Assembly: GCA_013115125.1 (NCBI GenBank)
Contig: JABANN010000333.1
Coordinates: 1 to 38,170 of the forward strand
Direction: 5' to 3'
Source: Perkinsus olseni
Taxonomy: Eukaryota
Length of the DNA: 38,170 nucleotides
Shown here: piece by piece, positions 1-38,170 of the stretch
Layout of the letters: each line of letters starts with the position of its first letter
Position numbering within the stretch: the stretch's first letter is position 1
The notes under the pieces: generated by a model
The model's input: the letters and a program-made list of their open reading frames with translations, nothing else
What the model was told of the DNA's origin: nothing
The model's database searches: none
Program-made: the position numbers and the translations under genes

Positions 1-97
1 ATATGAAAGCTTCGTATTAAGCAAGATATCTCAATTTTGGTCATTTGCATATCAAAATGGCACACACAGTATGCGGCATTGTTATGGTGTGTAGTAG

Positions 98-7512: not shown

Positions 7513-7549
7513 TTGTCATAATCTTGTCTTAATCCATTGTCTTAATCCA
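7513..7549. repeat. Short tandem repeat: TTGTCATAATC followed by 2x TTGTCTTAATCCA
   Basis: Read directly, about 110 bp upstream of the oxygenase copy B start. Confidence 0.7.
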
Positions 7550-12061: not shown

Positions 12062-12342
12062 GCTGACGAGTAGTACTCTGAGCGCTCACCCCATAGTTCC
12101 CCAACGCGAGACCAAGCACTGCTTGGCAAGCAGGTCACAGAAACGTTCTTTCATGCCGCATCCACACGCTTAGTGCCGCGCATCTCGAGGGTACTGTATA
12201 TCGACCCGCTGTAGGCCCCTTGCAGAAAGTTGGCCTCATTCAGTCTCGGGGCTGCTGTGGGTGGCTGCACCGTTATCGGCGGGAGTGGGTGTACTGGTCG
12301 GCTCTGAGATGCAATGAGGAGGTCGGCACAGGGCCGCCACGG

Positions 12343-15300
12343 TCACGACGAAGTAGGGAGATCTATGACGCCCATCAGAAAATAGCAGAAGATAATTTCC
12401 ACCACTAATGATTCAGAGTTGATGTGTTCGCTCGTGAAAATGCATGACAAAGCGGCAGTGTAGTGTTCGCCTACCGCGCCATCAATAGCAGCCATGAGGC
12501 ACTCCAGGCTGTGGGGCGAGAACTTCTTCTCGAGCAGCTCGCTGCGGAGTAGCTCTCCAACCAGGCCCTCCGTCACAGGCGGGGTGTTGTAGACGCTATT
12601 AGTGCGGCCTTTGGCGGATGCTCGGAGACGACCTGACCGTGCGAGTGCCATCAGCATACCGCTCGAAACTTCGGTATTTCCACGCTATATCCGCTCAGGT
12701 AGGGAAACCAAGAACGAGCTCTCACTCAATAACGAGCTCGCTCGCATGTGTGCGAAGAGGTACCCCAACTTCTCAGTGGCGCCCTCGGACACAGTCCACA
12801 TCCCTGCCTCGGCCGTCAAAGGATGGTAGCTAGGGGCTAGTTCGACCGGCGAGAACCTGGCATACGATTCGACGGCTTCTTCTCGTACACACCGTACGCT
12901 CTGGCAACCTCCTTCGCCTTGTTGCGGAGGTCCTCCACAGTGGCCGTGTCCGGGTCAAACTCACCAGAGTGCAGCACGCATATGACCGCTATTTCTCGAA
13001 GGGCCCTAAGGGAGGATGGAACAGCTCAATGGCCCGACCTTGGACGGCAAGTGACGCTTTCCTACCAGACGTAGAAGTAAACGTCTCGCCGGACTGAACG
13101 GATCTCATGCTCGCTAGGCACTCGGCCCCCATCCCGAGCCATGTAGCGGATGACCTGGGGGAGGAGTGGTACAGTGAAAGCGCAGTTTAGTGGCAGCGGC
13201 TACATCAGAGTCCAAAGCAGCCAGCTCGGCCAATGAGCCTGCTAGAGCCTTGGCGTCAAGTGGAAGATGGGCAGTCTTCTGAGAATGACAACACGTCGGT
13301 CGCTGCCGAGCTCAGACGACACTTTTATATCGCACACAGACCGGTGACGATCAGCACAGAGACAGCAGCCTCCCACAACGGCCTAGCTCGTTCTAACTCC
13401 GAAATCTCACTGGACAATTCTCTACAACGCCACGCGGTTGAAAATGCCTCTCTCACCGATTGTCCGAAGAGCATATGCATAGCGGTGCCCATCTGGTGAC
13501 CGAAGGATAGCACCTCCTCATAGTACAGCTTCCTGAGAAGGGACCACCTAACACTGTACGGGACAATGCGTATTCACCTCACTACGTTAACCTGAGGCCT
13601 CACGAAGTTGAGCTCTGTGAACACATGACCGTCACAGAGAGACACAGTGCTGGCTAGACCGGTCTTGTACTTCTTGCTACGAGCAAATACCCGCACGTAC
13701 CTGCTAGCCCGTGAATTTAGTGGCGCGTGACGGTGAGTCCTCACCAGTATCCGATGTGAGCGTTGGTAGCCGCATTCACCACATGCATAATCTGATATTG
13801 TCAACTAGAGCCGGCGGAGCGAAGCGGGTCCCCCCTACTTTAACATCCCTGTCCCAACCCTCGTGACTGAACGTGACGTTGTCGCTCTCGTCTATGAGGT
13901 CCACATTGAACAGCCTAGAGGCCAGCTCGCTATACCGCTTCAAAGCCGGGCCAAAGACCATATACTCAGCCAGTTGGCGTTGAAGTCGGTCTTGCCGGCA
14001 CATAGTGACGTAGAAGAGCTCATCGATGAGGTCCACATTGGTCGTGAGAGGCCCCTTCGGCTCCGGTGTGACCTTGCCGGCCATCGCTCCCAGTTTCAGT
14101 TGCTCTAGGCGCTTCACGAAGGGCACCAACAGCGGCAAACCGTCGTTCCAACAGTGCTGCAATACCCGCATCAAGTGGGCGTCATTGTGGATGCCCAACT
14201 GAGCGTTCTCCATCTCACCCCAGCTGGCAAAGCCAAGGGACTCGGCCACGCGTTTCCGAGCCTGCAGTACTGCTAGGATGCTTCGGTCGTGGGCCTCATT
14301 CTCGTAGAAATGCCTATGGTAGGCGTTAAAGATGATCTCTCTGGTCTTCCTATTATGACACTCGCCGACTACTCGATAATACGTAGCCCTATCCGCCTAA
14401 TGAAAAAAGTTGGAAAAATCGCTTCGCTCCGCTAGAACCTGGTTGCTTACCCTGAGACAGTAGCTATCGGTCCTATACCACACTCTAAAGTACCGCATAG
14501 CGTCCTCAGTGAGGCCTATGAGGTCCTTCTTCCTGAGGGGTACACCGCCTGTCGAGCTGAGACGCAGAGCCGAACCCGCCGGTACTTGAAGTAGTTCCTC
14601 TCTCCCTTCATCTTCTTATAAACCACCTTATGGCCCTTACCCATCGCCTTGAGTAGCTTCTTTGCCTGGCCTTTGGACTTCTCGTCCAACAACAACTGCC
14701 AGGCAGAGGATATACGTCACACCAGGCAGCCAGATGGCACTATAGGGCACTCCACCAGAGAGAGTCCAGCGACGAAGTGTTTTTTGGTAATACAGTTTAC
14801 AATCGGTGATCCGCTACCCTCCGAGACCACAGAGAACACTACCACCGAGCAACGCTGGCGCCCCGCTGAGACCACCCGTTGATACCTCTAGCAAGCGTGT
14901 ACCACTGAAGTGGCCGACCTCCTCCTTGCTTATTCTACCGCCCTTGAATAGCTTCCGCGTCACGTCGCACGAGTTGGATATCATCCAGCTGGACCATAGC
15001 CGCAAATACCGGCCACTGAAAACAGCGAACCTCTGATCAACAGCATTCAGCCAGCCAACAGCTACCCAGAGATGGCTGGGTTGGAGACCGCCTGGGCCTT
15101 CTCGACGTGGCGCATGAAGGCCAAGTACCTCTGCTTCAACTCCTTGTCCTCAGTAGCCTTACTGAGAGATCTCCTCAGGGAAAAATATCTGACAGTGCTT
15201 CGCTCCGCTGAGGCTTTATTGAAGGATGAGTAGTGTTGCATGAGGGGTCGCTCAACAAACCAATTCTGACACTCAGAATCGATACTGGAACCGCATTTTA

Positions 15301-15719
15301 CGCGCAAAAATCAATCCTAGAATCGATTCTGACATTCAGAATTACTTCATTCGGGGGGAATAGTTCATCCCTGCACGCCCACTAGCCTGGAAAGGTCCCC
15401 TAGTACTACTTCAATACCATCTTGCTCCCACTTCGCATTTGTCTGAGGTCCAGCGGCCCTTCAGCCCTCTCCCCTCGAGCAAAGGCTACTGTATTGAGGA
15501 TGGGATTGAATAACCGTATCCCTGGGAAGGCCACTCGCATGCCCTTCTCCATCACCGGCATGCCGACTGAAGTGGAACGCGACCTGTCGTCCTTCCGCCG
15601 TCCCCTAGACCAGTACGCTTGTTCCGGATGACACCGTCTCCGGGCCGGGCCGGGTCGAAGCCCATGCGCTTCAGCGTCTTCTGCTGCTTTGATAAGGCCC
15701 TCGCCACGGCATCACCCAT
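12343..15719 (-). CDS. Peptidase M3 family homolog (oligopeptidase A/mitochondrial intermediate peptidase-like), predicted catalytically inactive; ends approximate
   Basis: Exons encode CHNRKTREIIFNAY, ILAVLQARKRVAESLGFASW, ASRLFNVDL, WDRDVK, ELNFVRP and EEVLSFGHQMGTAMHMLFG (aligns to EVxTLFHEMGHAMH), in the expected M3 order. Confidence 0.75.
15262..15343. repeat. 22-bp inverted repeat pair (19/22 match) at the ends of a predicted 80-nt intron
   Basis: AATTCTGACACTCAGAATCGAT (15262-15283) versus the reverse complement of 15322-15343 (AATTCTGAATGTCAGAATCGAT). Confidence 0.85.
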
Positions 15720-15851: not shown

Positions 15852-17662
15852 ATGGTCTACGGTGACGATCATCCGAAGGAGTTTCCGGTAATGTCATCGA
15901 ATGCCATACCGATAGAAGTGCTTCGCTCCGCCTCCCGACCAGCTGCTTCAATGACGGTACGAGCGGGAGGAGACTGGACTGTGGAGGAGTTACTGTCCAA
16001 GGCTGGCTTGGATAAGGCAGAAGAAACCGTTATTGCTACTCGGAGTAGTATTGGCACCGGGGATCGAACCTGGGTGCTTCCTCACCTTCATTAGGTGTAT
16101 GGGAGTACTACAGGGAGCTAGAGGCCCGGAGCGCTGCGGACAGAAGCGTAAAGTGAACTACGGTGGCAGATGGGAAGAGTTTCATCTTATGCAGTCCTTG
16201 CGGCTTGCCGAAGAGAACCGTCGTCTCTCGGAGGAGGTAGTTCGGTTGGAGACCTTGCTACAGCGCAAGGCCGGGGAGACGTCGGTCGAGCAAGACGTAG
16301 TAGGGCAGAAACGGTCCTGATTTGGGATCGGGATGGTATGACGAATATGTGGACCTCAGGGTTCCGTGACTGCACCTAATAGTGCTCGGAGTCATTTGTC
16401 AAGGCGCAATAGTGTTACTTCGATGCTCAGCTACCAGAGCGAGGCGTAGGTCAATGCACAGACTCATTCGTACCAAATTTCTCACAAATCGTGACTAGGT
16501 ATATGGAGCATCAGGAGAGTGAGATCCTCCGACTTGACCAGGAGGTCAAATCTTTGAAAGATACCGTGAGTGAATCCTCCTGGAGATCTTCCCAACCTCA
16601 GTGGCCTCAGAATCGGAACCTTCACGATGAGTTGTCACGCATGCGGACGGACTTGGACAAGGCGAATTCTGATAATGTACAGTTGAAGCAGCAGGCGGCT
16701 GATCTACTAGCAGATAGGGACAGTCTTTTGCGAAGGCTTTCCAACGAATCTGCCGGAGCCCTACTGGGCGGCGGGAGTCCGGACTCGGCCGCTGGGGCGG
16801 AGACGAAGTCACCTGAGGGTGAAATGCCTCCACTCCGCTCGTATGTGGTGATGCACTTTTGATAGGGTCTTCGGCGGAGGGGAGCCTGCGTGTAACGCTG
16901 TCGCCAACGTCTTCCCCTCCTCGTCAACCTCCCCCTGCTTCCCCTGGGGGGTTCACTGAAGCATCCAGTCCTACCTGGTGTAGCAGTAATACCCCGGCCA
17001 TTGTCTTGGACGGGCTACTGCCGTACAGCCCCGACACCGCCGCTGGGGGTCTGGATCGAACAAGGACCGACGAGTAGGTGTGCAACTATGGACGGCTTTC
17101 GGGAGGGCCTCTTCAGTGTCGTCCACACGCTGACTATCAAAGTAGCCGAGCTAGAGCGCGATAAGGAGCAGTTGGTAGAACGTCTTAGTAAGGCCCTCGG
17201 AGGCGACCCCAGTACGTCACGGTAGGTCACCGTGCAGGGGGTGGTAGTGGCAGCGATGCCCCTCAGGCCCAGCTGCTCCCCCTCCTCGGTCGGGCGGTCC
17301 TTCGGTACATTCCCGTATCGTTGTCTGCCTTATTGGGAGTCTCATGTTCAGGCGCCTCGCTATGTGATGAGCTGACAGCGTTCCACAATGCTGAGAAGGT
17401 GGAGGAGCTAGAGGCGGAGTCGGATATGCTCCGGGACACTGTGGCACGATATCGGTCGTTAGTGCAGCGGAAGGTGGGCAAGGCCGGAGGGCAGCCCCTT
17501 GGTTTTACACACTCTGAATGATAGGTGTTGTTTCCGACTAATTTCGTGGTCGCCTTTCAGGACGAGTACCTTGCTAGGATCGTTGCGGTACTGCGAGAAG
17601 ATGCCGGCCAGAAGCAACGGCGGCCAGTGGGCGAGGCAGCAGGTCGCTTGAAGGGCCAGTAG
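15852..17662 (+). CDS. Hypothetical coiled-coil protein, multi-exon; start uncertain
   Basis: Successive exons with heptad-like E/K/L/R content (LAEENRRLSEEVVRLETLLQ, EILRLDQEVKSLKD, KVAELERDKEQLVERL, KVEELEAESDMLRD) separated by short GT-AG introns. Stop TAG at 17660-17662. Confidence 0.6.
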
Positions 17663-17689: not shown

Positions 17690-17885
17690 CAGTACTTTTT
17701 ATCAAGCATGTATCAATGAACAACAGTACACGGGTTTGGTTGTGGTGGTCACGGTAAAACTGCTTCGCTCCGCTAAGTTTTTTGTCCCAGAAAAGGACGC
17801 AGCAGTAGTTTTACCCAAGCATGTATCTGGGAACAGTACGAGGGTTTGGTTGGGGTAGCAAGGGAGAAAGCTGCTTCGCTCCGCT
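17690..17885 (+). repeat. Degenerate direct duplication (period about 112 bp) in the intergenic region before the DGK gene
   Basis: 17690-17774 and 17803-17885 share CAGTA-TTTT, CAAGCATGTATC, AACAGTAC, GGGTTTGGTTG and CTGCTTCGCTCCGCT in the same order. Confidence 0.85.
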
Positions 17886-17916
17886 CAATCTCTCGTCTCA
17901 GAATTGAATTTATTCT

Positions 17917-23748: not shown

Positions 23749-26700
23749 TGGCTCCTCGAGAACTCCTATCGTCGGCAACAGGCGATAGGAGGAATGATGC
23801 AGCACGCCTATGGACGGTATGAAGCCGTCGCGCTTGGCGCTGACGAGACTAGTACTCTGTCTGGGGAAGGTGGCATTCTTCATAGCTGCTTTCTTGCCTG
23901 CTTCTTTCCGCTCGGCAGGTGTCGACAATTGGGGCGGCCTCAGTTTGACGATGGTCGACTCTCTCGACACGCTGGCTTTGATGGGCATGCGAGCCGAGTT
24001 TGATCGGGCTGTCGACTGGCTCCATCAGCATTACAGAGAGGCTCATAGCAAGAATCTTTCTGTTAATACCTTCGAGTCTACGATTCGGATACTAGGCGGG
24101 TGAGATGGGAAAGGAGTGGTAGCAAGCAGCCTGAAGGATGGCCGAAAGTTAACGCTTCGGGCCTTTCCTCCATCAGGAGGCTTCACGAGAGTTTGTAACG
24201 GATGTTCCTCGGTTAATACATTCCAATCTGGGCGTGTCCGACCATATTTCCAATCATCGTGGCAGCATCGTATGGGGCATTGCTAGGAAGCGTCTCACCT
24301 CCGCTCAGGTACTTGGGCGGATGGACCCTCACGGTTCCTAATTCTCGCCAGAGAGCCATGCTGGCCGAGATGGCTGAGGATATCGGGCTGAGGTTGGTGA
24401 AGGCGTTCTACGCTCACGCTAATAACCGGGAGAGAAAGACCCCACATTTACCGTATTCGGACATCAACCTTGCGACAGGTGTGTGCGAGAATACTGTGGC
24501 CGAAGACTCACGCTTTGCTCTGTTGGCAGGGGAAGGCGCTCTGCTCGGGGGATACGTTAGTTTATCGGAGGCGAACGTCGGCCTCGATCTCAGAGCGGCC
24601 ACAATGGTCACCGGCAACCCTGTTTTCGCCGAGGCAGCCGCCAACGTATGCGTAGTATACGAGTAGAACGCGTAGTAGAACGAACTCATTCGCGAGTGTC
24701 GAAGTTATCGCGCTCCCAAATAGAGCGCTATGGCATCAAGAATGCACGTTGCTGTGGTAGCGGGCCTGCACTTTGTTCGAGCGGTGCCGGAAGCTTAACC
24801 CACTGCTGCAAAGGCCACGCTAGATTGAGAGTCGGGAGTTTATCTCGCCTAGTTTGCATACACCTCATCCGCCTGAGAGTTCGAGTTGCGCAAACGATTG
24901 ACTGATTTCGGGTCGACGGGTTGCAGATGAATAGTCCTGGCTCGCTGCTTCTCTGTTTGGGAGTTGCCAATCGCGGCTTTCTGGTGCCAGGTTCGTGCGC
25001 TATTGCGAACGCACTACAATGTTGATGCCGGCGGACTTCTCCCGGTCCTACTGCCGCTAGTTCCACAGGGGACGGATGACTTCAAAGATATCCCCGGAAA
25101 TAAACTAGGTCTCGGAGCACGAGGCGACTCCCACTATGAGTAGGCCATGGGCGTCCCTCGGAATATCAGCTCGAGCAGTGGGCCAGGTACATCATAGAGC
25201 TCTCCATGCTTAGGTACTTGTTAAAGGAGTGGATCCTGGGAGGCAAGAGCGATTCCTCGTTGCTGAGAAGCTGGCAGAACAGCCTGTATAAGATCTATCA
25301 TAACTTCAATTCGCATGCTGAAGTGGACGGTCTGGGACAAGACCGCATCGCTGAGTAGTGAGGATGATATAACTTGGGTCTTCGCCCTGAACGATGTGCT
25401 AGCTCCCAGAGGTTGCCCACGGTCGCTACGCGTCCCTGCTCAAGCATCTTTGGACCTAGCGGGACATTGTTTCTGATGTCAGTTTCGAACTCTACTGGTC
25501 GGTGCCGAAAATGGACCACCTTACCTGTTTTCTACCAGGGACTCTAGCGCTGGACTACATCGTTCGGAGAGACTATAACGAGTACGGGTGAGCTCACTTC
25601 TCCCGATTCCAGAGGAGGGTCATCGCGAGCTTCATTTGTGAGAGAGTGCGTGGGTGGCAATAGGGCGACAAGGCATTGCTGGGCCGTTCACTCGAAGGTC
25701 CCCTTGAGCTTACATGGCTCCATTGTGCCTCGACTCAGATCGAATTCGTATTCGCCGTCCACGCGAGAGCGTTGGCGCACATCAACGGCTTTCGAGGATC
25801 TGCTACTGTCAACTGGAGGAACGCTGAGTATCGATCAAGAGCTTGACTGGGCGAGAAACCTCACCTCAGCATGTATAGGGATGTGAGTTGAGGCGGTATG
25901 GCTGGGCTTTCTCAGTGCATTAAGGCTCTGTTGATCGCATGAGCATGCTCGCAAACACATACCGTAACATAGCTCACGTAGGCCAGATTTTATATAGCCA
26001 TTGTATGCAAGTCGCTTCGTATCACCGTATTAATGCACACCAATGTTGCGATACCACTGTTTCCGCCGATTGCTGAAAATCTCGAACGCCTGCTTGATCC
26101 TGCTGCGGACTGAGACACTACTGTCCTTCCGCTGTAGCGTTGTGAACATGTTCTCCTCAGGTATTCAAGAATCTCCGAGACCGGTTTGGCCCCGGAGATC
26201 ACCCGCTTTGACGCCCACGGCCTAGTGGACGACGTTGGCGCCATGCACAATCTCCTCAGACCAGAGGCTATTGAGGCTCTGTGGTACATGTGGAGAGCCA
26301 CCGGAGATTGGTGAGCTCATGGGGTTCCCAATGGAACCGGTGGGCCATAGCATTAGTGGTTCCGCAAGGTTCGTTCGTATGGACGCTCGAAAAGTGACGT
26401 CTGGTCTAAGTGGTCGCATGGCACTGAATCAATGGGCTGTCATTCTCACGTTTTGAGAACTTTTCACTCGCATTCTCACGTCCAATTTGATGACCGAGGT
26501 ACTACAGAGAAGCTGGCTGGCGTATGGCTCGAGCATTCGAGCGTTATGCACGCACACCTTATGGATACTCTTCACTGGGCAACGTCAGAAAATCCGGCAG
26601 TTACACAGGATGGCAACCGACCTACTTCTTTTCTGGTATGATTCTGCGGGGAAAGCTGGTGTCGTTGGGATTCCCGCGGACTGCCTCGGTCCTATTGATG

Positions 26701-26988
26701 ATATCTTGCAGCAAGATTCTTGCTGCATCTCGCGTGGCCAGGAAATTCCGGCTCATCTATCTAGCCTGCGACGAAGGTATAGGCATTGAGTGACTAGGTC
26801 CATCATAGCTGTTGCGGCACCCTTGGAATTAAGCATCGGATCTAATTTCAGAAACCTTGAAGTACCTTTACCTCCTCTTCTCCCCGGACTCCATTGGTGA
26901 GAGTCCTGGCGTGCAGGACGGTATCCTCTTACATCACAGCGTGTACGTTCTCAACACTGAAGGGCATCCGTATGCTATACCTACGTAG
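23749..26988 (+). CDS. Glycoside hydrolase family 47 alpha-1,2-mannosidase, multi-exon; true start lies further upstream and is unresolved
   Basis: Exons encode HAYGRYEAVALGADE, LTMVDSLDTL, FESTIRILGG, GARGDSHYE|YLLK, KMDHLTCFLPGTLAL, GLAPEI, LLRPEAIEALWYMWRATGD, QPTYFFS|ETLKYLYLLF and VLNTEGHP. Confidence 0.93.
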
Positions 26989-27456
26989 CTGTCTTTGGCG
27001 GCGAGGCAGGAAAATTGTGATCGACAGGTTTAGCAGAACATCTCATGGCTTCAGCCGCTTGCTTCTGTGAGCTGTGCTACTTGTGAATTAAAACGGGGTT
27101 AGAGACTCTGGGGTCACGGGGATCGAGCGCTGTTCTTCACGGCACGGAGGGCTCGGTAGCTCGTCGTGAGGAGCAGAGGCCGAAGGAGAGAAAGCCTTCC
27201 AGTTGTTTGTTAGCACCTCTGAATGGCCACGAGTAGGAACGCTGGAGCAGTTGATAGAACCGAGGTATGATTGGGTGGTAGGCGTTCCGGAAGGGAATCG
27301 AGAGTGACCAGCCTTCAACTCACACTTCACTTTCTAGTTCGAACTCACGTACCGAATGAGAAGGAGTGTATGAAGTACTTGTGCACTTTGGGACTTGACG
27401 ACGCTGGGAAAGCGAACACCACTCAGGATGCTGCGAGAATACATTTTGCCAAGGAA

Positions 27457-30400
27457 ATGAGTACTCAGTTCGGTACCGAGTGTCCCGTTTGATTAACGGT
27501 CTATGACAGAGTCTTTGTGGTGGTCAGGTTGCCAATACTAGGCAAGTCGATGAGAGCCTAGAAGTCAGCCTGCATCCTCGGTATGTCTTCGGCGTCCGCT
27601 CGGACGTGAACAATGGGGTAGGAAAGTTCAGGTCACGTGTGTATCGGGCGTATCCAAGGCGGGCAGTAGCCCGAATCCCTATCGAGTATTCAGTCAGTGT
27701 CATTTATATCATGTGCCGACTGAGCGAATCGCTCAGTCGGCACATGGCACATCGCTCCGAGCGATACGTGGCTGAATTACATGCAATCTTCATCCTCTCT
27801 CGAGAAGTAGCACCTCAAGGACTGGCGAAAGTATGACGGGAAGGGCGTATAAAATTGGCGTTTTCGAAGGTACACTTCGTTGACGATCAACATGTAGCCT
27901 GCGCTGCTGGAAATAACATCGTAAGTTCATGCAATCGCAACTTCCGGTCTCGCTTTTTCCGGGGTTGCAAGTGACGAAGGGTTTTATCAGACCCAACTTC
28001 ACGTAGACCAGCGGACGCAAACGTTCATGCCAGCTACGAAGGGAGCCCTAGGGATCAGCTGCACTACAATCTCAGCTGAGCGGAGGTGGGTCAAGTCACT
28101 CGACAGCTGCTCGACCCGAGTAGCTAAGCGTTCCGCTCATTCTCATTGCGGCGAGGCGACTCTGTAGCGGATGACGAGCGATCTTGGTTGCTGCTCCTTC
28201 CGGCACTTCGGCACTTCATCGCCATTTCCAATTGAGATGCTACGCGAGGCATATCCGTAGGTACTTGGCTGTGGGTGAGCGCCACTCTGAGCAGGCCATC
28301 GTCAGCGTGTTCGATCTCGCCTCTTCTAAGAGAGTGAAAACCCTGAGGACTGAATGTGGAGTGAAGGATGTGGACTGCATAGCATTCTCTGGAGGAGAGG
28401 GCAAGTAAGGATGCAACCCGTAGTGGGACGCAATGAATACATCCACTCCTCGATGACTTGAGGATGTACTCGTGAGTGTAAGCGAACGCCTATGATTGAT
28501 CGATTGGAGCAATTTGCTCTGTATGTCATGATTGATTGAAGGCATTCACTGAAGAAGAGAAATGCTGTTCTGTCTTGGATTTCGTACGCTTTCGGGTCTG
28601 TAGGTATCTGGTAGCTCTGTCAAAAGTCCACCCGTATGGTTCGCAGCTTAGCCCAGCCAAGGGACCTCTTCAACCAATGGCGGAGTGTGGATCCAGGCCG
28701 GACTACAGATTGAGCTGCTGGGTGAGCAATGTTGTCGCTCTGCGGTACACATCATATCTGCAGGACTGGGATCAAGGGCGAATGACGGCTAGCGTCAGGC
28801 TCTTGGACGGTTATCCGTCAGACCTGAGGGCTGTGGTGAGTTCGGATTCCATCATTCCCGCTGTAATGATGCATCTCTCTTTCAGCCCTCTTGTGTCTTG
28901 TTTTCTGTCTCGGATGGGATAAAACTATGCACCACCGGAGTCAATTTCGTGGCAGTTCATCACGTATCCCCTGCTGGAGAGCTCACTGCGGCGGTGAGAG
29001 TCGGGCTTCTGTGGTCCCACATCTCGCTCCTGTCCCACTTGAGTGGATCTAGCAGCTCAACGTTTTGCTAGACGCCCAGCGCGAAAAATGGAGTTTGAAG
29101 GGACCCGAGTTGCTTCGTTCGTGGCACGAAATTCGTGTATTCTCTATTGGTCGCGGCTGACGCGCGATCGCAGAATACACAGACGCTGCGCACAGTTGGC
29201 AGAAATGGCCCGGAGGTGACTGTACTCGCGACGGTGTCTTGAAGACACTGTCTTCACAGATACCCGTGCCGGAGCAGCTCAAGTGTTTGCCCGAAGAACA
29301 TCAGTACTCGATGGGTGAACCGAACCTTTCTAGTGATGCTCCATCCGGATTCGAAGTCACGAGTCATATTTGGACCGAGGTGGGGCTGCTCGCGCTCCCC
29401 GAGACAGCTGAGCTAAGCACCTTCAGGCTGGCGACGTCATTTGTGGGACTTCGAATGGGAAGCTTCTGCTTTTCGACGAGTACGGAGTATTCAAGTAAGC
29501 TATGCCGCATAGCCTATGCGACATACTTTTTCGTTGCCTCGACTCAAACGCCGTGGCGCAAGTGCACCATGCATGCCATGTTAATCATGTTATGGCGCAC
29601 CGTGTGCTATGATACGAACGAAATCCAATCAATGCCAATATACGAGCCTCGTATTACGGGCGGTGTCACGAACGTCTCGATTCGTTCAAACATGTCTTCA
29701 TGGCGGACTGTGAGAGTCCGACTCTCAATGGTGCGGACTAAGTAAGCACTTAACGCGTCTGCGCCCCTTCTATTGGGGAGTCACCGATGGTGACATGAGA
29801 GGAGGTCGGTTGCGTAATACTGAATGCGCGTGCGGGCGCAGCAGTAGTAACTACTGAGTTCGCACCGGCATGGAAGATCGAACGCGTGTACCAGGACTGA
29901 CTCTTCCTGTGCAGTAGACGGCGCCCATGGCGGCCCATGTCTTCCAAGGTTTCCTGACTGAGCTATTAGCGGCTCCTGATGAGCTGTAGATGCGGCAGCG
30001 CAGTGTTCATCTAATCCGACCGAAAGCTTGATCACTGCAAGTGACCGACGCTCGCCAGGCGAGCCGGCGTCTGTGGCTTGGTTGCTATTCTGAAAGTGGG
30101 CGACCCGGGGTTCAAGGGCTACTCTGATGGACATTTCGAACAAAGTCCTGAGCAAGTTCTCGCCTTTGGAGTGCAACTACTGATGCCGGACGAGCTCTCT
30201 ACATATCTTCGGGATTATTTATGAATGTTAGCGATGGTTAGCTAGACTGATGAGGTACGGTACGTCACATACCTGAGCCGACATATGTCGGTTTTTCACA
30301 TTCGGTGACTGTACCTACGACATCGTCGCTGATAAAACATTCCGTGAAAGCATCGTGCGCTTCGCATACCCAGACACCTTGCGGGTATGGGCGGCGAAAG

Positions 30401-33400
30401 GATTTTCTCGCTTCAAAGCACAGCCGAGCGGGTTGTCGGACATCTGCTTAGTACGTTCCCATTTGCCGCGAGGAGATCTGTACTGCACTACGCTCCTTGA
30501 GCGATGCAGCAAATTCGTTCAACGAATTTGCAACGAATTTCGTTGCATAGATACTCGTACAGCCCGTTTGCCGGGCTCTGTCAGCGACGGGTATTTGCCT
30601 CGGCGTGAAAATCTCGATTCTGATATTGGGATTGTAATTCTCCGAGGAGAATGATCTGCTTCGCCGAATGGGTTTGGACACCCCTGTTACCCGGTAACAG
30701 GCTAATAGCCTGAGGCTATACTTCTCTTGGAGGTGGCCATATGATATGGCTCATATCTGTCAATTATCGCGATCAAGTTTTTCATTCAAGCCAAGTGGCC
30801 TGTCTGGCTGTAAGTTGTGATGTGTTGCTTTCGGGTTAGTCTTCGGGACGATATTGTGGAGCCCGAGGTAGAGGCTGTCCGAGTTATACTTGGCTCTGAA
30901 ATTTGCTGAGGATGTGGAATCTGAGCTAGAGACTGCCGGATGAAATCGGAGACCACAATAGGCCGTACTTTTGTCCTACTGACGACCGTCATCACTCATT
31001 GTAGTCCTCGTCTTGGACTGGGTCCCCCGCGGCTTGAGCCTCCAGGCGTTAGAGTAACCGATTATTAATCTCATCAACCTGAAGCTAGGACTCGCCATAC
31101 ATAGCAGAATCGTGAAGTGCGGAGCCTAGACCGGCGAGTCTCTACACGAAGGTCGATGCTCCTATGAATGCCGCGCTTCAGTGACTCGCGAGTGGGCCCA
31201 AATCGGGTCAAAAACTGTCGATAACATCAGCAGCTGATGATCAGCTGCTATCTTTATGGTATGTGTTGTCGATCAGGCAATCACTGATCATCGACCCCAC
31301 AGCCACCAACGGTGCCTACCGCATTATGGCACCATGGTCGAGGGGAGGCTTTCTCACGGCTAGTGATGACGGTATAGTGAGGACGTTCAGGAAGAACTCC
31401 GATGACCCAGAACAGGTGACGCTCCTCCTTTGTTCCGATTCTGATGTCTGCTTCCTCTCAGCCCTACCGTCTCTCGAGGATCTTCTCGGTGGATCCACCG
31501 GGAAAGCACCCCTCCGGAAGTGAAAGCCAACCCGAAAGTTTGTCGGGTAACAAAGGAACTTCGCTGGTTTGCAAGAGTCGATTTTTTCCCAGCTGCTGGA
31601 CTGTCTTCGCCACACGGAGAAGCAAATACCACGAGCAAGGTCCGGACCGGATGATATTATGCGTTTTCCTGGGGAAAATTTGTTACCCCAGGCCCGTAGC
31701 ACGAAGCTTTTATCGATATCCTTGTCACCCTCGGAGGATTGCTTGGCAGCCATCACAGACCGTGGCCAGCTACTCTCCATCCCGCTTCGCTCCGCCAAAC
31801 GTGAGCCACGAATAAGTTATATTCAACTGATTAGATGGACATCCTCTGCCATCAGGCCTGAGGGAAGCACCTCTTAAAGGAAGCAGAGGAGAAGAGGAGT
31901 ACTTGCCAGAAAAGCAGCCCGCAAAGTGGATGCTGTGTAACGAAATTCTACGTGAACTACGATCGAGCTTCAGTCTTAGGTTCGTTCCACACGGGGCCAG
32001 TGCTGGGCATGGACGTCTGCGTTCGGAGGCCGATAGTAGCTACTTGTGGAGCTGACCATACGGTGAGGGAGCGAATGCCCGCCCGGGAATGAGTTTCTTT
32101 CTGCAGGTGAGGCTATGGAACTTCTGGGAACGTCGTTGCGAGCTGGAGCAGTATTTTATGGAAGAGGCCTTCTCGATCGCCCTGCACCCCAGCGGACTAC
32201 AAGCTCTAGTCGGCTTCGTCGACAGGCTCAGATTGATGGATGTGAGCCCCCGGGGATCCAAGATTGTCAACTGTGCACTGGCGAGGGCCACAAATTTTCT
32301 GATAAATCTAAAGGTTTGAGTTTTTGCTGTCTAGCTGATAATGACTACTGGTCGGTAGTAGTTCAATGACATTCGGCCATTTTTACTTTGTTTTCCGGCG
32401 CAGGTCCTCAAAGATGAGCTGAAGACTTACAAGGACTTCCCGCAAATCAAAAGCTGTCGGGAGTGTCGCTTCAGTAGTGGCGGCCACCTATTCGCAGCAG
32501 CTAGCGGCAACAACGTTGAGGTTGGGAGGAAAGCTCGAGTGCTTTCTGTAGCCAATTGCTCTCAGATCTACAAGACTTTTACATGCGAACGCGTCTATCA
32601 GCTGAAGGGTCATAATAATAAGGTGCGCAACTCGCGGCTGTGATGATGAGGATATTCTCTCCTAGGTTAGAGCCATCTGCTGGAACTGGGATGATACGAG
32701 GCTGGTCAGTGGCGGAATGGATGGTGCTGTGTGAGTGTCACTAGCGTTGATCGGGTATTTGCGTACGCATCGACCATGCCACAGTCGTTCGCTCATCTTA
32801 TACCCTACAAACTAGGTCCACGAAACGATGCCGTCTCGTTTGCAGGGCGCTTCATTCTGGCCGTCGATTGCGGTCAGGCAAATCCATAGTACCAGTATGT
32901 TGAATAAAATATTGTATGTTAATATAGGTATATTATGGTCTGACGTATGAGTTATTTTACTTCTTATCTTTCTCAATAGCCGTCTCGCTAAGGTACGAAT
33001 ATGACATGGTTGGCAGCGGCCAGCGCCTATCGGATTGGGTCAACAAGAGCTCCTTAGTATCCTCGGCCGCAGTGTGGACTGATACATCTGCAGTCAGCAA
33101 GAGAGGCTTATTGCAGAACGGCTTGCCGGTGACCCGAGTGTAGCTTCCGATGACTGTGTGTTGTCTCCATACGCTCGGCCACGCTGAGATACGCTGTTGG
33201 CAACAACAGCAGCATCCGTGAGGTCTACTCCTCTCAACTTCAAGGCTCCATCGATGCAAAACCGTCCTGCGACGACGATGTGACTGGCCCTGTCTATTTC
33301 GGTCAAATATGCCTTGGAGAGAGTAGTACGCTCTCGGCCTTAGGGATAGGCCGATAGGCTCCACTCAATGTGCGGTCGCTAGGTACCAAGACTCTGTTCG

Positions 33401-36400
33401 TAAGTACTTCTTCACCAGAGGACAGTGAAGGTGGGGGATGATCGTGCACAGCTGTAGTTGAGTTGCCTCTCAGTTCTCGGTGGAGCAATCCGATGCTATC
33501 GTCTCCTCTCGGAAGAGAGCTCCGATAATGATGATAGTGGAGTTGTTGGGGATGAGGTGGCATCGGCTCCCACTTCGAGGCCCGATGCCATGTACGTCGG
33601 TGTCTGGAGCATTCCTTTGTGGAGTCGCCAGCAAACTCATTTGTCTTCCCCCAGCGGGCATACCACCGGCCCACTCTCAGCATGCATCATCGGTTACCTT
33701 CGACTCGGGCGGCTCAACATGGAGTGCTCTGTCAGATTCTCAGAGCAGCTGTGTCACTTTGGTGAGGTTACAAGGATGGCAATAACCGCCGATGAAAGGC
33801 AAGATATGCACGTGGACAGGCCTCGCGACTCGCCCAGGGTCCAGTGGTATTCTACTCGCTCTGCATCTTCTTGGGTTTGCGCGACTGCCCTTCCTCTGTC
33901 TATTCATTCGGATGGGCGTTGTGCTGACAAAGCTCGATTTGGTAGTTGCTTGCGGTTGCGTTCTCAGGATGCTCTTCACCTGTGGGGAGGACGGTTGTGT
34001 ATATGTCTTTGAGATACGGTGGGCATTGCATCATCCGTGATAGACATTCAGGCTTACGTGATCAGGAATAAGAGTAGGCTGCTGTCCATTCCGCAGAGTG
34101 GAGGTGCTGAGGGATCTGAAGAAGACGAGGAATTGCCGTGAGTATCTCCCGTTTCCCTGCCTGGACGACAGTGTCTCGCGTGGTCGGCTTCTCGTATTCG
34201 AGGGATCGCCTTGTGTGGAATGTGATTTAAACCTTCACGGTGGCCGGTTGGTACTGTTGTGAGTAGGTGTCTCTGAGTGGATATTCTCCATTGTTTGTCA
34301 GTGGTTATTTGATAGCTATTTTGCAGGTACTCGGAAGAGGTGCTGATGACCAAAACGGCACTGGACGAGAAGCAACATCAACGGAAGGATCTTCGGCGCC
34401 AAGTGGAGGAGCTCGCCAACCAAACGGACTACCAGCTACGCCACAGGTCGGGGGGGGGGGCGAAGCGAATGCGCGCGTGAAACTCGTTCTGTAGGGACTC
34501 GTACCACGCTGAAAGGATTGCGGCGTTGCAGGGGAAGTTCGAGAAGTCGTTGCAGGAACAGAGGGACAAGTACGGCTCGCTGTAGCGGAGTTTATGTGAC
34601 GGTCAACTCTCCGGCGGCTATCGTGGAATTCCAGAGTGGAATCAGTAGTAGCAAGTCGGTCTTTGTAGATACGAGATGCTTCGAGAAGAGAAAGACGACG
34701 TTCAAGGAGGTGCGTGGCTGGGCGTGGTTCCTACCTAGACGCACCTCTCCACTGCAGAGTACGAGCGGAAAATCAGAGATCTCTTGGAGACGCAGAAAAG
34801 CGAGCTGCAGGAACAGGAGATTGCCTACCAAGAGAAGATAGTGGCTCAAGTTACGAAGTAAACTACTCGGAATGTCGTCTGCGTTTGGGGTGGTTAGTCA
34901 CTACTTGGTATTGAGAGAACGGTACAGGCAAATCCGTCAGAGAGGAATTGGTGGCTACGCATTGAGACGTGTGGATCTCGCAAATTCCTGAGCGGTATTG
35001 CGCGGCTGGTAGGTGTCAGCAGCTAGCGCAGCAGCGGCACGAGGATCGGCGGCAATGGAAGCAGATGCATCAGAGCCTCTTGGACATGCACGAGAACAAG
35101 GTTGCCGAGTTGCGACAGCAGTAAGATGGTCGTAGGTCGTATTTCACTCCGCCCCAGGGTGTCATCGCACATTTGCTATAGTGGCTCTCGCGACCGCTGC
35201 CTTGCTGAGGCTGACGGTTCAGGTACCAGGAGCAAGAAGCGAGGGATCGCCTGCATAAGCAAAGGGTGGATGACGAGAAGGCTCTGGCGATAAAGGTGAT
35301 CGGAACTTCTCAGCTCTCAACGGACAGGAGCATTGAGTAGGTTCACAGCGAGACTGTACAGCAATTGGAGCAGGATGCGGTTGGAGAGCTGAATGATATG
35401 AAGGCTCAGTAGGTGTGCAAAGTTTGGGCTAGCTGGAACTTGGGTATCCAAGGAATGGTCGTGTGCCTGAATCAGGCAGTTTGATGCTTTGTTCTTCTGT
35501 TGCATGGCGTAACCTTGAGAACAAATTTGCGACATACCAAGTTGGTATTGGATCAACCTTTGTTAATACTATTACCTACGGTTGATCTTTAGAGCCTACC
35601 ATCCATGGGGCAGGAATGCGATCCGCTCGTCGTGCCAATATTCTTCTTCATAGTTTTCTTCTGTCTTCGTGCCATGCAAGGCAATCGGCTGTATGGTCGC
35701 TCTGGAGCGGGTTCTGATCATGTGTTGCGAACATTTTTAGGTACGAGCAGCTGTTGTCTTATGAGAGAGACGACAAAGTTAAACTGAGAGGAGAGGCTGG
35801 TATACATAAGAAGCATCATGAGGACTTGAGGAAGCAGATGCATAAGAAAGAAGAGGAGATAAGAGGTGACACTGGAAGGGGCCTCCTCGGTATCTGGCGT
35901 CGAGCGAACTGTGTTGCGGTTATGGTTCCTGATACGTTGAGTGTTTCGACGCAGGCCAACAGGAGGAGGCCAGGAGGAAGCAGGACAGGATAGACGAGTT
36001 GATGGCTGAGCGGGAGAAGAGCTTGAAGAACATTAAAGAACAGGACAAGGTTATCGGGGAGAAGGAACAGAAAATATATGATCTCAAGAAACAGAATCAG
36101 GAGCTGGAGAAGTTCAAATATGTAAGAAGAAGATGTCTGGTATGTTGCGCGATCTTCCGATTGCCCGATGCTCGTGGGCGTCAGATTATGGACTATAAGA
36201 TCAAGGAGCTGAAGGCACAAGTTGGGCCGAAAGAAGGGGACATAGCGGAGATGAAGAAACAGATCTCGGATATGGACCGGGATCTGGAAGAGTTAGTTGG
36301 GGGTTGCGGTTGACCTCGTCCATCCGGTGTGGCAGACATCACAAACAAAATAAACATTTAATGGATGACATCAAGCAAATGAGGGGGAAGCAGAAGGAGC

Positions 36401-37559
36401 TGCAGCGTGAGGTGGTTAAGAACAGGCAGCGGCTGTCAGACTTGCGCCGTGTATCGAGGGCCTTCAAGACGGACCTCTATCATACCACGCAGCACATATT
36501 GGTAGTTGCGCTCCTGCTGCTAGCCGTAGGGGAGCCTCATGCTCGAAAGCGCGTCACACGCTCATCGCTGGACTCGCGCATATTGCGACAAGGCAACGGC
36601 AGAATCGCTCAGGATCCCGAGAAGCTTAGAGACAGCTTCGTAGCCATGGCGAAGAAGTATGTGGAACTGCCTGACGACGATGAGGAGGCAGCGGAGAAGG
36701 AAGGAGAGGAGGAGGAAGAAGAAGAACGGGATGGGCAGGAACCCCCCACGAAAGATGTACATGACCTTAGCGAGGAGATCCGCGATGTAGTAACTTGGTA
36801 ACGTATCAGGGGTACACGGGGGATCATTAGGAGTAGTTTTGCGCATGCGGACCAGCTCTTCACTATAGGAGTACGAGCAGCAGAGGGGGTATCTCGAAGA
36901 GAAAGTGAATAAGCTGCGGACGAAGCTGCAGAAAGATGCAGAGGCTCGTCGGAAGGATAACTCTCGGATAATGGGGGTGAGCATTTGCCCGGCAGCTGGA
37001 CAGAGTACGAGGCTTGCAGGAGAATATTGCTCTACTGACTGAGATCGGCGAGCTTCGTAAAGAACTACAGGCTTTGAAGATGGAGCGTCAAGAGAGGAAG
37101 ATGAGCGTATCCAGGCCCGGACCTTCTACTAGAGCTGAAGCTGCGGGTACCACGGGGGCCCGTGCAAGCGATATCTCGCGTCCCCAGGAAGAGGAAGTCG
37201 CCCGATATAGTCTCTCGTGACTTCATGTATGATCTGCGTAGCATACTGGTTGTGACATATCGGTTCACGCTATATATTTTATTCTATACACGGAGTTGTG
37301 GTGACGCCTGGCGGGAACTGCCTGCGAACCGCGGTTCGCGTATCCGACTCGCGCCGAAGTGATCCTCTGTTTCTACGGGTTTGCTGTTTCAGCTGGAAGA
37401 AGACCACTCGGTGTGGGCAAGAAGGCTCCTGGACGTGCTTCAGAAATTGAACAGAACAGGAGAACCATAGCGGAACTACGTGAGAAAATTAGAGGCAGGG
37501 AGGAGATCATACGGAACTACGGAGAAGCGCTAACTAGAGGTGAATCTAAGCTACCATGA
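27457..37559 (+). CDS. CFAP57: Cilia- and flagella-associated protein 57 (WD40 repeats plus coiled coil), many exons; start approximate
   Basis: PRYVFGVRSDVNN, RYLAVGE, FHTGPVLGMDVCVRRPIVATCGADHT|VRLWN, EEAFSIALHPSGLQALVGFVDRLRLM, EQDKVIGEKEQKIYDLKKQNQELEKFKY..DYKIKELK and QENIALLTEIGELRKE match FAP57/WDR65 conserved blocks. Confidence 0.9.
27710..27746. repeat. Perfect palindrome with 18-bp arms and a 1-nt centre, in a CFAP57 intron
   Basis: CATGTGCCGACTGAGCGA-A-TCGCTCAGTCGGCACATG read directly. Confidence 0.95.
29495..31276 (+). other. Unusually long (1782 nt) CFAP57 intron rich in short palindromes
   Basis: Donor AA|gtaagc at 29495 and acceptor gatcag| at 31276 join FDEYGVFK to QSLIIDP in frame. 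Internal ORFs show no recognisable domains. Confidence 0.65.
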
Positions 37560-37980
37560 AAGATGAGACATCCTCATTGAGGATCCCTCCTTCGACGTGA
37601 TTGTTATCTTAGCCGAGGAGCTCAGTATTGGGTTGTTAACAAATCTTCGTGGGAGAATCCCTTTCTTTTGTCTCTCCGCAACCAGGTTTTGAAGACCGTT
37701 TTCTTCCGCTTAGCTGGGACTGTCGGGCACTCCGTAGCAGTTTTGTGCGTGGTCCGAGGTACTCACTCAAGATCGGGCCCAGTCATCTCGGTGTTATAAT
37801 AAGGCCCTGCGGCTGTGAAATGAAACTCTCGTTCCACAGCGGCAAGCTCTGCCGGGCAGAGTGGTATGCTCTGCTCGAACGACCTGATTTCGGAAACTAG
37901 CTTTCATGTGCCCGCCTCAACCACCGGTGAGATTGACGTGAGTTGTCGAACTGCTTCAACTCAAAAACCGGTGCCGATGT

Positions 37981-38048
37981 AGCTAATGAGCGTGATCCCA
38001 TCAGATGGGACCCGAACTCATTAGCTCATTAGCAGATGGGACCCATCT
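37981..38048. repeat. Nested inverted-repeat cluster
   Basis: AGCTAATGAG (37981-37990) pairs with CTCATTAGCT (38017-38026) and encloses TCCCATC-A-GATGGGA; then AGATGGG-A-CCCATCT (38034-38048). Confidence 0.9.
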
Positions 38049-38119
38049 TCAAGTATACGTTGAGCATGAAGCTACGAGGCTGGACGTCGTCTCAGTAACT
38101 ACACCATTTCCAGACCTAC

Positions 38120-38170
38120 TTAGTAAAACCCCAGAGCAATTTAATAAAGCCCAGAGCAAATTAGTAAAAC
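38120..38170 (+). repeat. Tandem repeat of 20-21 bp running off the window end
   Basis: TTAGTAAAACCCCAGAGCAAT / TTAATAAAGCCCAGAGCAAA / TTAGTAAAAC... Confidence 0.8.

What the first reader, a model, noticed from the sequence alone, without database searches (positions are those of the whole stretch)
29118..31249. Flip-flop hexamer triplets X-n-X'-n-X with palindrome centres exactly 7 nt apart
Seen: four sequence-unrelated cases of a 6-mer, its reverse complement, then the 6-mer again, each separated by one base: TTCGTG-G-CACGAA-A-TTCGTG (centres 29124/29131), CTATGC-C-GCATAG-C-CTATGC (29506/29513), AGGCTA-A-TAGCCT-G-AGGCTA (30705/30712) and ATCAGC-A-GCTGAT-G-ATCAGC (31232/31239). Decayed versions appear at 37570/37577/37584 and near 37847/37854. 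Most isolated palindromes also have 7-bp arms. Inference: a fixed 7-nt step suggests an enzyme with a ruler, for example iterated hairpin sealing followed by nicking 6-7 nt from the tip, or a double template switch of fixed length. I know of no named element with this form.
Basis: partly seen in the sequence, partly recalled or inferred. Interest (0 to 1): 0.78.

Follow-up and report, generated by a model that had tools for sequence, protein, structure and literature searches.

The report
Transposon excision scars in Perkinsus introns
The "word, reversed word, word" motifs are most likely scars left where a hAT-type jumping gene cut itself out of the DNA of the shellfish parasite Perkinsus: a known kind of scar, here unusually uniform, dense and easy to read.

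Summary
The window holds 7 exact X6-n-X6'-n-X6 triplets against about 0.002 expected, and no other unit or spacer length gives independent sites. Odd palindromes with arms of exactly 7 number 20 against 1.6 expected.

The true unit is 22 nt: T[1..7] + revcomp(T) + T[2..8], where T is an 8-bp word. Fourteen 22-mers meet at least 12 of the 14 pairing constraints (0.05 expected). Three more sites hold the same two palindromes pushed apart.

In 17 of 20 cases the palindrome centre is the complement of the outer base of T. That is the published signature of Ac/Ds (hAT) excision footprints: 8-bp target-site duplication and flank hairpins with a one-base tip. The 7-nt step is therefore set by the 8-bp duplication, not by a ruler nuclease.

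A diverged relative (runs X7/X8) carries a single copy of T at one site, an empty site, and shares another scar with substitutions.

All scars lie in introns, a doubtful annotated exon or intergenic DNA of a Perkinsus (olseni-like) contig. Eleven sit in one 1,782-nt intron.

No transposase or donor element is in the window, and no genome was available, so hAT membership is inferred and not shown.

The parts
12112..12133 (.). compact 22-nt scar, T = CCAAGCAG
   Evidence: 14 of 14 model constraints. All six frames carry stops around it.
26703..26724 (.). compact 22-nt scar, T = ATCTTGCT, in an intron of the GH47 mannosidase gene
   Evidence: 14/14. The intron 26635-26841 is set by the spliced X9 contigs (table 8) and by the tblastn map of P0023.
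27710..27765 (.). split scar: an 18-nt-arm palindrome (centre 27728) and a 7-nt-arm palindrome (centre 27758) that share GAGCGA in direct orientation
   Evidence: The left centre obeys the complement rule and the right one does not. X7/X8 replace 27705-27758 by 16 letters (tables 5 and 5c), but 10 nt remain unexplained.
29117..29138 (.). compact scar, perfect in the three 6-mers but with both outer bases off the rule
   Evidence: 12/14. Lies in intron 28994-29259 of the CFAP57/WDR65 gene.
29234..29255 (.). compact scar, T = GTGTCTTC, just upstream of a 3' splice site
   Evidence: 14/14; intron 28994-29259.
29499..29520 (.). compact scar, T = GCTATGCG, starting 4 nt into the 1,782-nt intron
   Evidence: 14/14; intron 29496-31277.
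29640..29661 (.). decayed compact scar
   Evidence: 12/14; third unit matches 5 of 7.
29705..29726 (.). decayed compact scar
   Evidence: 13/14; first unit matches 6 of 7.
29842..29856 (.). lone 7+1+7 palindrome
   Evidence: No recognisable third unit (3 of 7).
30050..30064 (.). lone 7+1+7 palindrome
   Evidence: 3 of 7.
30252..30273 (.). decayed compact scar found only by the model scan
   Evidence: 12/14.
30509..30547 (.). split scar: palindromes with arms of 11 (centre 30520) and 9 (centre 30538) sharing TTCGTT in direct orientation; T = ATTCGTTG
   Evidence: both centres obey the complement rule. The two arms extend 4 and 2 nt beyond T into reverse copies of the left and right flanks and meet at a TGC overlap (read).
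30683..30701 (.). lone 9+1+9 palindrome whose right arm overlaps the next scar by CAGG
   Evidence: Read as a one-sided hairpin product joined at microhomology (inference).
30698..30719 (.). compact scar, T = CAGGCTAT
   Evidence: 14/14.
30736..30757 (.). decayed compact scar
   Evidence: 13/14.
31225..31246 (.). compact scar, T = CATCAGCT, shared with the diverged relative
   Evidence: 14/14. X7 and X8 contigs run through it with 31224 A>C and 31236 G>T (table 3).
35464..35485 (.). decayed compact scar inside an annotated exon that CFAP57 homologues lack
   Evidence: 12/14. Annotated exon 35454-35540 encodes residues 906-934. Solved CFAP57 chains align to query 905 and resume at 966-968 with contiguous chain numbering.
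35534..35548 (.). lone 7+1+7 palindrome at the end of the same doubtful exon
37563..37584 (.). decayed compact scar 7 nt after the last codon of the CFAP57 gene model
   Evidence: 12/14; last exon ends at 37556.
37840..37861 (.). decayed compact scar, intergenic
   Evidence: 12/14.
37996..38048 (.). split scar: two 7+1+7 palindromes (centres 38003 and 38041) 38 nt apart sharing CCCATC; T = TCCCATCT; 23 nt of filler partly copied in reverse from the left flank
   Evidence: both centres obey the rule. X7/X8 contigs carry one copy of T followed by TCAAG, an empty site (tables 5 and 5c; alignment by eye).

Best explanation
The motifs are fossil excision footprints of a cut-and-paste DNA transposon that behaves like a hAT element.

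Proposed steps:
1. On insertion the element duplicated an 8-bp target word T.
2. On excision the transposase nicked one strand one base inside each flank and sealed each flank into a hairpin. Its single unpaired tip base is the complement of the T base that touched the element.
3. Host enzymes opened both hairpins at least 8 nt from the tip. The unfolded 3' tails then end in revcomp(T) on the left and T on the right, which are perfectly complementary over 8 nt because of the duplication.
4. The tails annealed, flaps were trimmed and gaps were filled. The product is T[1..7] + revcomp(T) + T[2..8], which is 22 nt and 14 nt more than the empty site.

This product reads as X-n-X'-n-X with palindrome centres 7 nt apart. 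When the tails joined elsewhere, at short microhomology or with templated filler, the same two palindromes lie further apart with longer arms.

The scars are neutral relics. They sit in introns and spacers and decay by mutation.

Shown here: the structure, the complement rule, the 8-bp unit, one empty site, sharing with a relative, and the non-coding location. Inferred: the transposon itself, the opening and joining enzymes, and local hopping as the cause of the clustering.
For: 1. Unit specificity. There are 7 exact triplets, and no other unit or spacer length gives independent sites, against 0.0023 expected. Fourteen 22-mers meet at least 12 of the 14 model constraints, against 0.05 per simulation.

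2. Complement rule. The centre base is the complement of the outer base of the other T copy in 12 of 14 centres of the compact exact triplets, and in 17 of 20 when the three split pairs are included. The binomial tails at p = 0.25 are 3e-6 and 3e-8. [quoted passage not shown] The same passage reports arms of up to 20 nt in yeast and joining at microhomology. PMC1978519 (passages) places the nick at the flanking 5' nucleotide.

3. Odd, not even. Only palindromes with a 1-nt centre are enriched. The MULE Muta1 makes a 43+43-nt, even, hairpin (PMC5499845 passages). An 8-bp duplication is the hAT hallmark (PMC4763223 and PMC4423477 passages).

4. Split pairs. Three further pairs of odd palindromes, 18, 30 and 38 nt apart, share the 6-mer in direct orientation. 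Simulations gave 0.03 such pairs. At 30509-30547 the arms extend into reverse copies of the left and right flanks, as unfolded hairpins should.

5. Decay series. Six of the 16 odd palindromes with no partner 7 nt away still match the expected third unit at 5 or more of 7 positions (null 2.8%, p = 3e-6).

6. Empty site. X7/X8 contigs carry one copy of TCCCATCT where the window has 45 extra nt.

7. Age spread. The scar at 31225 is present in X7/X8 with substitutions.

8. Location. All scars lie in introns, spacers or a doubtful exon.
Against: - No transposase domain was found in any ORF of 90 aa or more (12 + 89 ORFs). No element with inverted ends plus an 8- or 9-bp duplication is in the window.
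- No genome is held, so a hAT element in this organism is not shown.
- The papers I found on Perkinsus transposons report Dada (6-7 bp duplications), Merlin-like ORFs without ends, and a Tc1-like element. None reports hAT.
- Classical small hAT footprints, two tandem T copies with a changed middle, are not visibly enriched. Direct repeats at offsets 7-9 are at expectation.
- The scar at 29117 breaks the complement rule at both centres. The right centre at 27758 breaks it too, and the matching X7/X8 site leaves 10 nt unexplained.
- About 20 events in 38 kb, with 11 of 14 intronic events of one gene in a single intron (p = 1.4e-4), need an extra assumption such as local hopping or a hot spot.
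- The empty allele could instead have arisen by slippage deletion between the two direct 6-mers.
- The hAT target preference nTnnnnAn (recalled, not from a call) is only weakly hinted: 12 of 32, p = 0.054.
Confidence: 0.7

Rival explanations
1. The same hairpin mechanism, but the agent is not a hAT element. It would be another or undescribed cut-and-paste superfamily with 8-bp duplications and a one-base hairpin offset, or a domesticated transposase-derived host nuclease.
For: No hAT is shown in Perkinsus. P. marinus keeps Merlin-related ORFs with an intact DDE motif but no ends; Merlin makes 8-9-bp duplications and its excision chemistry is unknown to me (PMC8101967 passages). Strong clustering in one intron.
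Against: The combination of an 8-bp duplication and an odd hairpin centred on the complement of the adjacent base is documented only for hAT in the passages I read. A nuclease without prior insertion would not duplicate T.
Confidence: 0.15
2. Transposon-independent break repair: double template switching, or polymerase-theta snap-back synthesis, creates short inverted triplications.
For: Two split scars carry filler copied from nearby sequence, and the joints show short microhomology (27739-27752 and 38013-38035). This shows that an alternative end-joining activity took part.
Against: The fixed 8-bp unit in 14 compact cases, the 1-nt centre (a snap-back needs a loop, established knowledge) and the complement rule in 17 of 20 centres are not predicted. 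No priming microhomology is seen at the switch points. Even palindromes and other loop sizes are not enriched.
Confidence: 0.08
3. One reading: one broken end is sealed into a hairpin, nicked 6-7 nt from the tip, unfolded, and the cycle repeats.
For: The step between centres is constant at 7 nt in the compact cases. Two triplets are followed by 3 nt of a possible fourth unit, at 26724 and 31246.
Against: Arms of 9, 11 and 18 nt in the split scars show variable opening distance. In the empty allele the base after CCCATC is T, the outer base of T, and not its complement A as iterated sealing of a single copy would require. No run of four or more full units exists.
Confidence: 0.05
4. The palindromes are functional sites, such as protein-binding sites or RNA hairpins, or an assembly artefact.
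For: None specific.
Against: The sequences are unrelated to each other and no repeat family was found. They decay, including within the relative. Six runs from two studies hold all sampled words of 26000-32000, although these may be the source data.
Confidence: 0.02

Closest known systems
Ac/Ds, Tam3 and Hermes (hAT superfamily) excision footprints: the flank-hairpin model
   Same: 8-bp target duplication; palindromic insertions centred on the complement of the base next to the element; variable hairpin opening (arms of up to 20 nt reported in yeast); joining at microhomology (PMC5873905 and PMC1978519 passages).
   Different: Those footprints come from experiments and are heterogeneous and mostly short. 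Here they are natural relics, and the dominant product is one stereotyped 22-nt form in which both hairpins are unfolded past the whole duplication and annealed over all 8 nt. I did not see this exact product in the passages I read. Yu et al. 2004 (PMC321453) was not held, and I made no attempt to fetch Lazarow et al. 2012. No element or transposase has been identified here.
V(D)J coding-joint P nucleotides and Transib or MULE flank hairpins
   Same: Hairpin on the flanking DNA, off-centre opening, palindromic additions.
   Different: Those hairpins have no unpaired tip (Muta1: 43+43 nt; the Transib 5-bp and MULE 9-bp duplications come partly and partly from recall). They therefore give even palindromes, which are not enriched here.
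Duplication-derived microhomology repair of mPing and Muta1 excision sites
   Same: The target-site duplication supplies the homology used to rejoin the donor site (PMC4561436 seen as search listing and abstract only; PMC5499845 discussion).
   Different: There the direct copies anneal and restore the empty site. Here the inverted copies created by the hairpins anneal and add 14 nt.
Template-switch and quasi-palindrome mutations; polymerase-theta templated insertions
   Same: Local inverted copies; filler copied from nearby sequence in two of the split scars.
   Different: No fixed unit length, no 1-nt centre and no complement rule are expected from these mechanisms.

Membership tests
hAT-type excision footprint (Ac/Ds, Tam3, Hermes) | Palindromic insertion centred on the complement of the flank base that adjoined the element | tested here: met
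   17 of 20 centres; 12 of 14 in the compact exact triplets. The rule is taken from PMC5873905 passages.
hAT-type excision footprint (Ac/Ds, Tam3, Hermes) | 8-bp target-site duplication | tested here: met
   The 7+8+7 layout fits only a duplication of 8 with a 1-nt offset (length = 3t - 2o; inference). One empty allele carries a single 8-bp T.
hAT-type excision footprint (Ac/Ds, Tam3, Hermes) | Odd hairpin with a one-base unpaired tip | tested here: met
   Only 1-nt-centre palindromes are enriched: 20 vs 1.6 at arm 7. Even palindromes with arms of 7 or more: 5 vs about 2.3.
hAT-type excision footprint (Ac/Ds, Tam3, Hermes) | A hAT transposase (DDE with hAT dimerisation domain) and elements with short inverted ends in the same genome | not testable with these tools
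   No genome is held. The window has no transposase domain and no end-plus-duplication candidate. Two metagenome scans gave no Perkinsus DNA.
hAT-type excision footprint (Ac/Ds, Tam3, Hermes) | The same site seen occupied by the element in another strain or haplotype | not tested
   The single read-laying run shows only the best-supported differences. No occupied site was seen.
hAT-type excision footprint (Ac/Ds, Tam3, Hermes) | Target preference nTnnnnAn (recalled, not from a call) | tested here: inconclusive
   T at position 2 or A at position 7 in 12 of 32 positions of 16 inferred targets, p = 0.054.
Transib/RAG or MULE-type footprint | Even palindromes (hairpin without an unpaired tip) | tested here: not met
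   Even palindromes are at expectation. The Muta1 hairpin is 43+43 nt.
Dispersed palindromic repeat, MITE or introner family | Copies share sequence | tested here: not met
   The scars are unrelated in sequence. The repeat search found no family covering them.
Template-switch or snap-back insertion | Variable length, a loop of several nt, priming microhomology | tested here: not met
   Single unit length, 1-nt centre, other loop sizes not enriched.

The most novel reading that the evidence does not exclude
Perkinsus repairs hairpin-capped excision breaks almost only by unfolding both hairpins and annealing them over the duplicated target. Every visit of a still unidentified element with an 8-bp duplication, or of a host-tamed hAT-like nuclease acting again and again on particular introns, would then add 14 bp of palindrome. 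The genome would hold a dense, datable record of transposon visits. This process would be a main cause of the few long introns among the roughly 50-nt ones.
Probability: 0.2. Interest if true: 0.75.

Novelty: new member of a known kind. Interest (0 to 1): 0.45.

Why it matters
If this reading is right, the scars are a readable fossil record of cut-and-paste transposition in a parasite genome where no matching active element has been reported in the papers I could search.

- Each scar gives the exact target word, the cleavage geometry (8-bp stagger, one-base hairpin offset) and the repair route (distant hairpin opening, then annealing at microhomology).
- Its decay gives a relative age.
- This bears on how Perkinsus mends double-strand breaks, which matters for interpreting genome-editing outcomes.
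- It bears on why a few introns are 5 to 35 times the 50-nt median.
- It bears on gene annotation, because one scar sits in an exon call that homologues lack.

The mechanism itself is textbook hAT biology. The value lies in the organism, the abundance and the uniform product, not in a new principle.

Tried and rejected
- **Whole genome:** not held.
- **More Perkinsus DNA from metagenomes:** a protein-guided scan found 104 pattern matches but no relative. A scan with the satellite motif from the window's end gave 24 single-match loci. I judged these unrelated without testing them, because none holds the motif more than once, and used them only as a negative control.
- **7/14-bp indel spectrum among strains:** Read laying lists only 12 of 121 indels and 40 of 1,382 substitutions. 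The listed indels (7 nt at 29169, plus 2, 3, 6, 9 and 17 nt elsewhere) could not be tied to scars. The skips at 29076-29177, 26645-26814, 31299-31843, 32067-32370 and 37135-37501 have unknown content. I read the sequence at the last three and saw no terminal inverted repeats or duplications.
- **Transposon in the window:** no Pfam transposase hit. No inverted ends with an 8- or 9-bp duplication, and the five 7-bp candidates look like chance. Long-range inverted repeats in the big intron are at chance level.
- **Classical tandem-duplication footprints:** direct repeats at offsets 7-9 are not enriched.
- **Codon-bias map:** weak discrimination (coding median 8.2 bits per 120 nt). It shows only that no scar lies in a clearly coding stretch. 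The exon map from P0021 was more useful.
- **Earlier scan notes:** nothing on this genome or this motif.
- **Literature:** I found no paper linking Perkinsus with such palindromes or with hAT. Searches for the exact 22-nt product found none. PMC4105704 and PMC321453 are not held. The one-base nick offset of Hermes is recalled from Zhou et al. 2004 and is supported here only indirectly.
- **tRNA genes:** none found, so the tRNA-targeting Dada elements of P. marinus are not involved here.

Full report
**What is there**

A complete scan for X-n-revcomp(X)-n-X finds seven exact cases with a 6-nt unit and 1-nt spacers. They start at 12113, 26704, 29118, 29235, 29500, 30699 and 31226. Units of 5 or 7-10, and spacers of 0, 2 or 3, give none. 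The hits for unit 4 with spacer 3 include the same seven sites. Chance gives about 0.002.

A census of all short palindromes shows one anomaly only. Odd palindromes (one unpaired centre base) with arms of exactly 7 occur 20 times, against 1.6 in 20 second-order Markov simulations. Arms of 5 and 6, even palindromes and all other loop sizes are at expectation. In 173 kb of unrelated metagenome DNA the same script finds 6 such palindromes and no triplet.

**The real unit**

In six of the seven triplets the base before the first 6-mer pairs with the second spacer, and the first spacer pairs with the base after the last 6-mer. The object is therefore 22 nt long: two 15-nt palindromes offset by 7. 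Written with an 8-nt word T, it is T[1..7] + revcomp(T) + T[2..8].

Scoring every 22-mer of the window on the 14 base-pair constraints of this formula gives 6 at 14/14, 2 at 13/14 and 6 at 12/14. Simulations gave 0.05 per window at 12 or more, over 40 simulations.

Of the 16 odd palindromes with arms of 7 or more that have no partner 7 nt away, 6 still match the expected neighbouring unit at 5 or more of 7 positions. The null rate is 2.8% and p = 3e-6. Many "isolated" palindromes are therefore decayed triplets.

Three further pairs of odd palindromes, 18, 30 and 38 nt apart, carry the same 6-mer in direct orientation on their outer arms. Simulations gave 0.03 such pairs. They are the same object with the two halves pushed apart.

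**Where it lies**

The window is eukaryotic. It encodes a kinesin, a diacylglycerol kinase, a Mei2-like RRM protein, a GH47 mannosidase and others.

The kinase is 96% identical to a protein that its source names Perkinsus olseni and 85% identical to one named P. marinus.

A 1,346-residue protein named WD repeat domain 65 (CFAP57), from the same species label, maps letter for letter onto 27223-37556 in 40 exons.

Against this map and the mannosidase map, every scar lies in one of the following:
- an intron;
- DNA downstream of the gene;
- one exon call, 35454-35540, that solved CFAP57 homologues lack. Their alignment stops at residue 905 and resumes at 966-968 with contiguous numbering.

The one exception is the scar at 12112, which neither map covers. 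There all six frames carry stops, so it too is unlikely to be coding.

The gene's introns have a median of 50 nt. Eleven of the 14 intronic events lie in the single 1,782-nt intron (p = 1.4e-4 for its share of intron length).

**Mechanism**

The formula has only one solution in terms of a target-site duplication of length t and a hairpin with o unpaired tip bases. The length is 3t - 2o and the layout is 7+8+7, so t = 8 and o = 1 (inference).

This is the hAT geometry:
- an 8-bp duplication (passages of PMC4763223 and PMC4423477);
- flank hairpins (PMC5499845);
[quoted passage not shown] In yeast these have arms of up to 20 nt and are joined at microhomologies (PMC5873905, passages; also PMC1978519).

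Here the centre is that complement in 17 of 20 testable centres (p = 3e-8). The MULE Muta1, in contrast, forms a 43+43-nt hairpin. That would give even palindromes, which are not enriched.

Suppose both hairpins are opened 8 nt or more from the tip. The two unfolded 3' tails then end in revcomp(T) and T, which are 8 nt of perfect complementarity created by the duplication. Annealing there, trimming the flaps and filling the gaps yields exactly the 22-nt product. This last step is inference. I did not find this product described in what I could read.

**The split scars fit the same scheme**

- At 30509-30547 the left palindrome is T[1..7], the complement of T8, and the reverse of T[1..7] plus 4 nt of reversed left flank. 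The right palindrome is 2 nt of reversed right flank, the reverse of T[2..8], the complement of T1, and T[2..8]. The two meet at a TGC overlap (read; T = ATTCGTTG).
- At 37996-38048 two 7+1+7 palindromes with T = TCCCATCT enclose 23 nt. This filler includes a 9-nt reverse copy of the left flank, partly duplicated.
- The arms of 7 to 18 nt at these sites show that the opening distance varies. The constant 7-nt step of the compact form comes from T and not from a measuring nuclease.

**Comparison with a relative**

Runs X7 and X8 carry a lineage whose contigs are mostly 90-99% alike to the window (table 1).

At 37965-38041 their contigs show 33 letters that align by eye to window 37965-37996, with about 4 mismatches and one indel. 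They then continue directly with CCCATCTTCAAG. This is one copy of T where the window has 45 extra nt (tables 5 and 5c). It is an empty site of the predicted form. The base after CCCATC is the outer base of T, as the duplication model requires, and not its complement.

At 27705-27758 they have 16 letters in place of 54. The right half fits, with a single GAGCGAT, but 10 nt on the left are unexplained.

Through the scar at 31225 their contigs run on with two substitutions, one of which breaks a pair (table 3). That scar is therefore older than the split and is decaying.

The tool lists only the best-supported differences, so no indel spectrum could be drawn.

**What speaks against, or is missing**

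- No transposase domain and no element with ends and an 8-bp duplication is in the window.
- No genome was available, and two metagenome scans gave no Perkinsus DNA.
- Papers I could search report Dada, Merlin-like and Tc1-like elements in Perkinsus, but no hAT. None mentions such palindromes.
- The scar at 29117 and the right centre at 27758 break the complement rule.
- Ordinary short footprints are not visibly enriched.
- The density, about 20 events in 38 kb, and the clustering need local hopping or a hot spot, which I did not test.
- The empty allele could be a secondary slippage deletion between the direct 6-mers.

**Verdict**

The best explanation is relic excision footprints of a hAT-like cut-and-paste element (confidence 0.7). 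Whether the agent belongs to the hAT superfamily remains inferred.

The ruler and iteration ideas are not.

The mechanism is known biology. What is new is the organism, the abundance and the uniform 22-nt product. I rate it a new member of a known kind, with interest 0.45.

Noticed in passing
window 35454-35694 and 32286-32357: Three exons of the annotated CFAP57/WDR65 model (P0021 residues 906-934, 935-968 and 418-441) have no counterpart in solved CFAP57 chains, whose numbering runs straight across. They look like intron sequence called as exon. One of them contains a scar.
   Followed up: partly
window 27223-37556: The CFAP57 gene model has 39 introns with a median of 50 nt. A few are long (1,782, 677, 376 and 309 nt). 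The scars lie in three of the introns longer than 250 nt (1,782, 677 and 266 nt), and 11 of 14 lie in the 1,782-nt one.
   Followed up: yes
window 38097-38170: A satellite-like repeat of about 20 nt (CCCAGAGCAA-TTA-TAAA...) runs off the window's end. Word depth in the runs is 3,484-8,206 against about 100 elsewhere, and many contigs end or loop back there.
   Followed up: partly
window 14421, 15197, 17762, 17873, 31784 (and reverse at 13813): A 13-15-nt motif, GCTTCGCTCCGC-, recurs six times. Two copies lie in a tandem duplication of about 110 nt (17690-17903) just upstream of the diacylglycerol kinase ORF. It may be a promoter or other regulatory word.
   Followed up: no
window 15262-15343: An 82-nt imperfect even palindrome (41-nt arms, 73% complementary). 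It is of a different kind from the 15-nt scars.
   Followed up: no
window 983-1001, 11109-11127, 16060-16075: tRNA T-arm-like words (GGTTCGAACCC and its reverse) occur, yet ARAGORN finds no tRNA gene. They might be tRNA or tRNA-derived remnants. Dada transposons target tRNA genes in P. marinus.
   Followed up: no
window 25853-27034: Contigs of run X9 (coded as another organism) match at 100% and skip 25883-26160, 26310-26497 and 26635-26850. They behave like spliced transcripts of the GH47 mannosidase gene.
   Followed up: partly
window 26724-26726 and 31246-31248: Two of the seven exact triplets are followed by the first 3 nt of what would be a fourth unit (GCA, GCT), which extends the second palindrome to 10-nt arms. 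This may be chance, joining at microhomology, or a hint of a further step.
   Followed up: partly
window 29705-29745: The scar at 29705 is flanked by an imperfect direct repeat (ATGG-CGGACT before, ATGGTGCGGACT after, about 30 nt apart). It also contains GTGAGAGTC, the same word as the 5' splice site at 28994.
   Followed up: no
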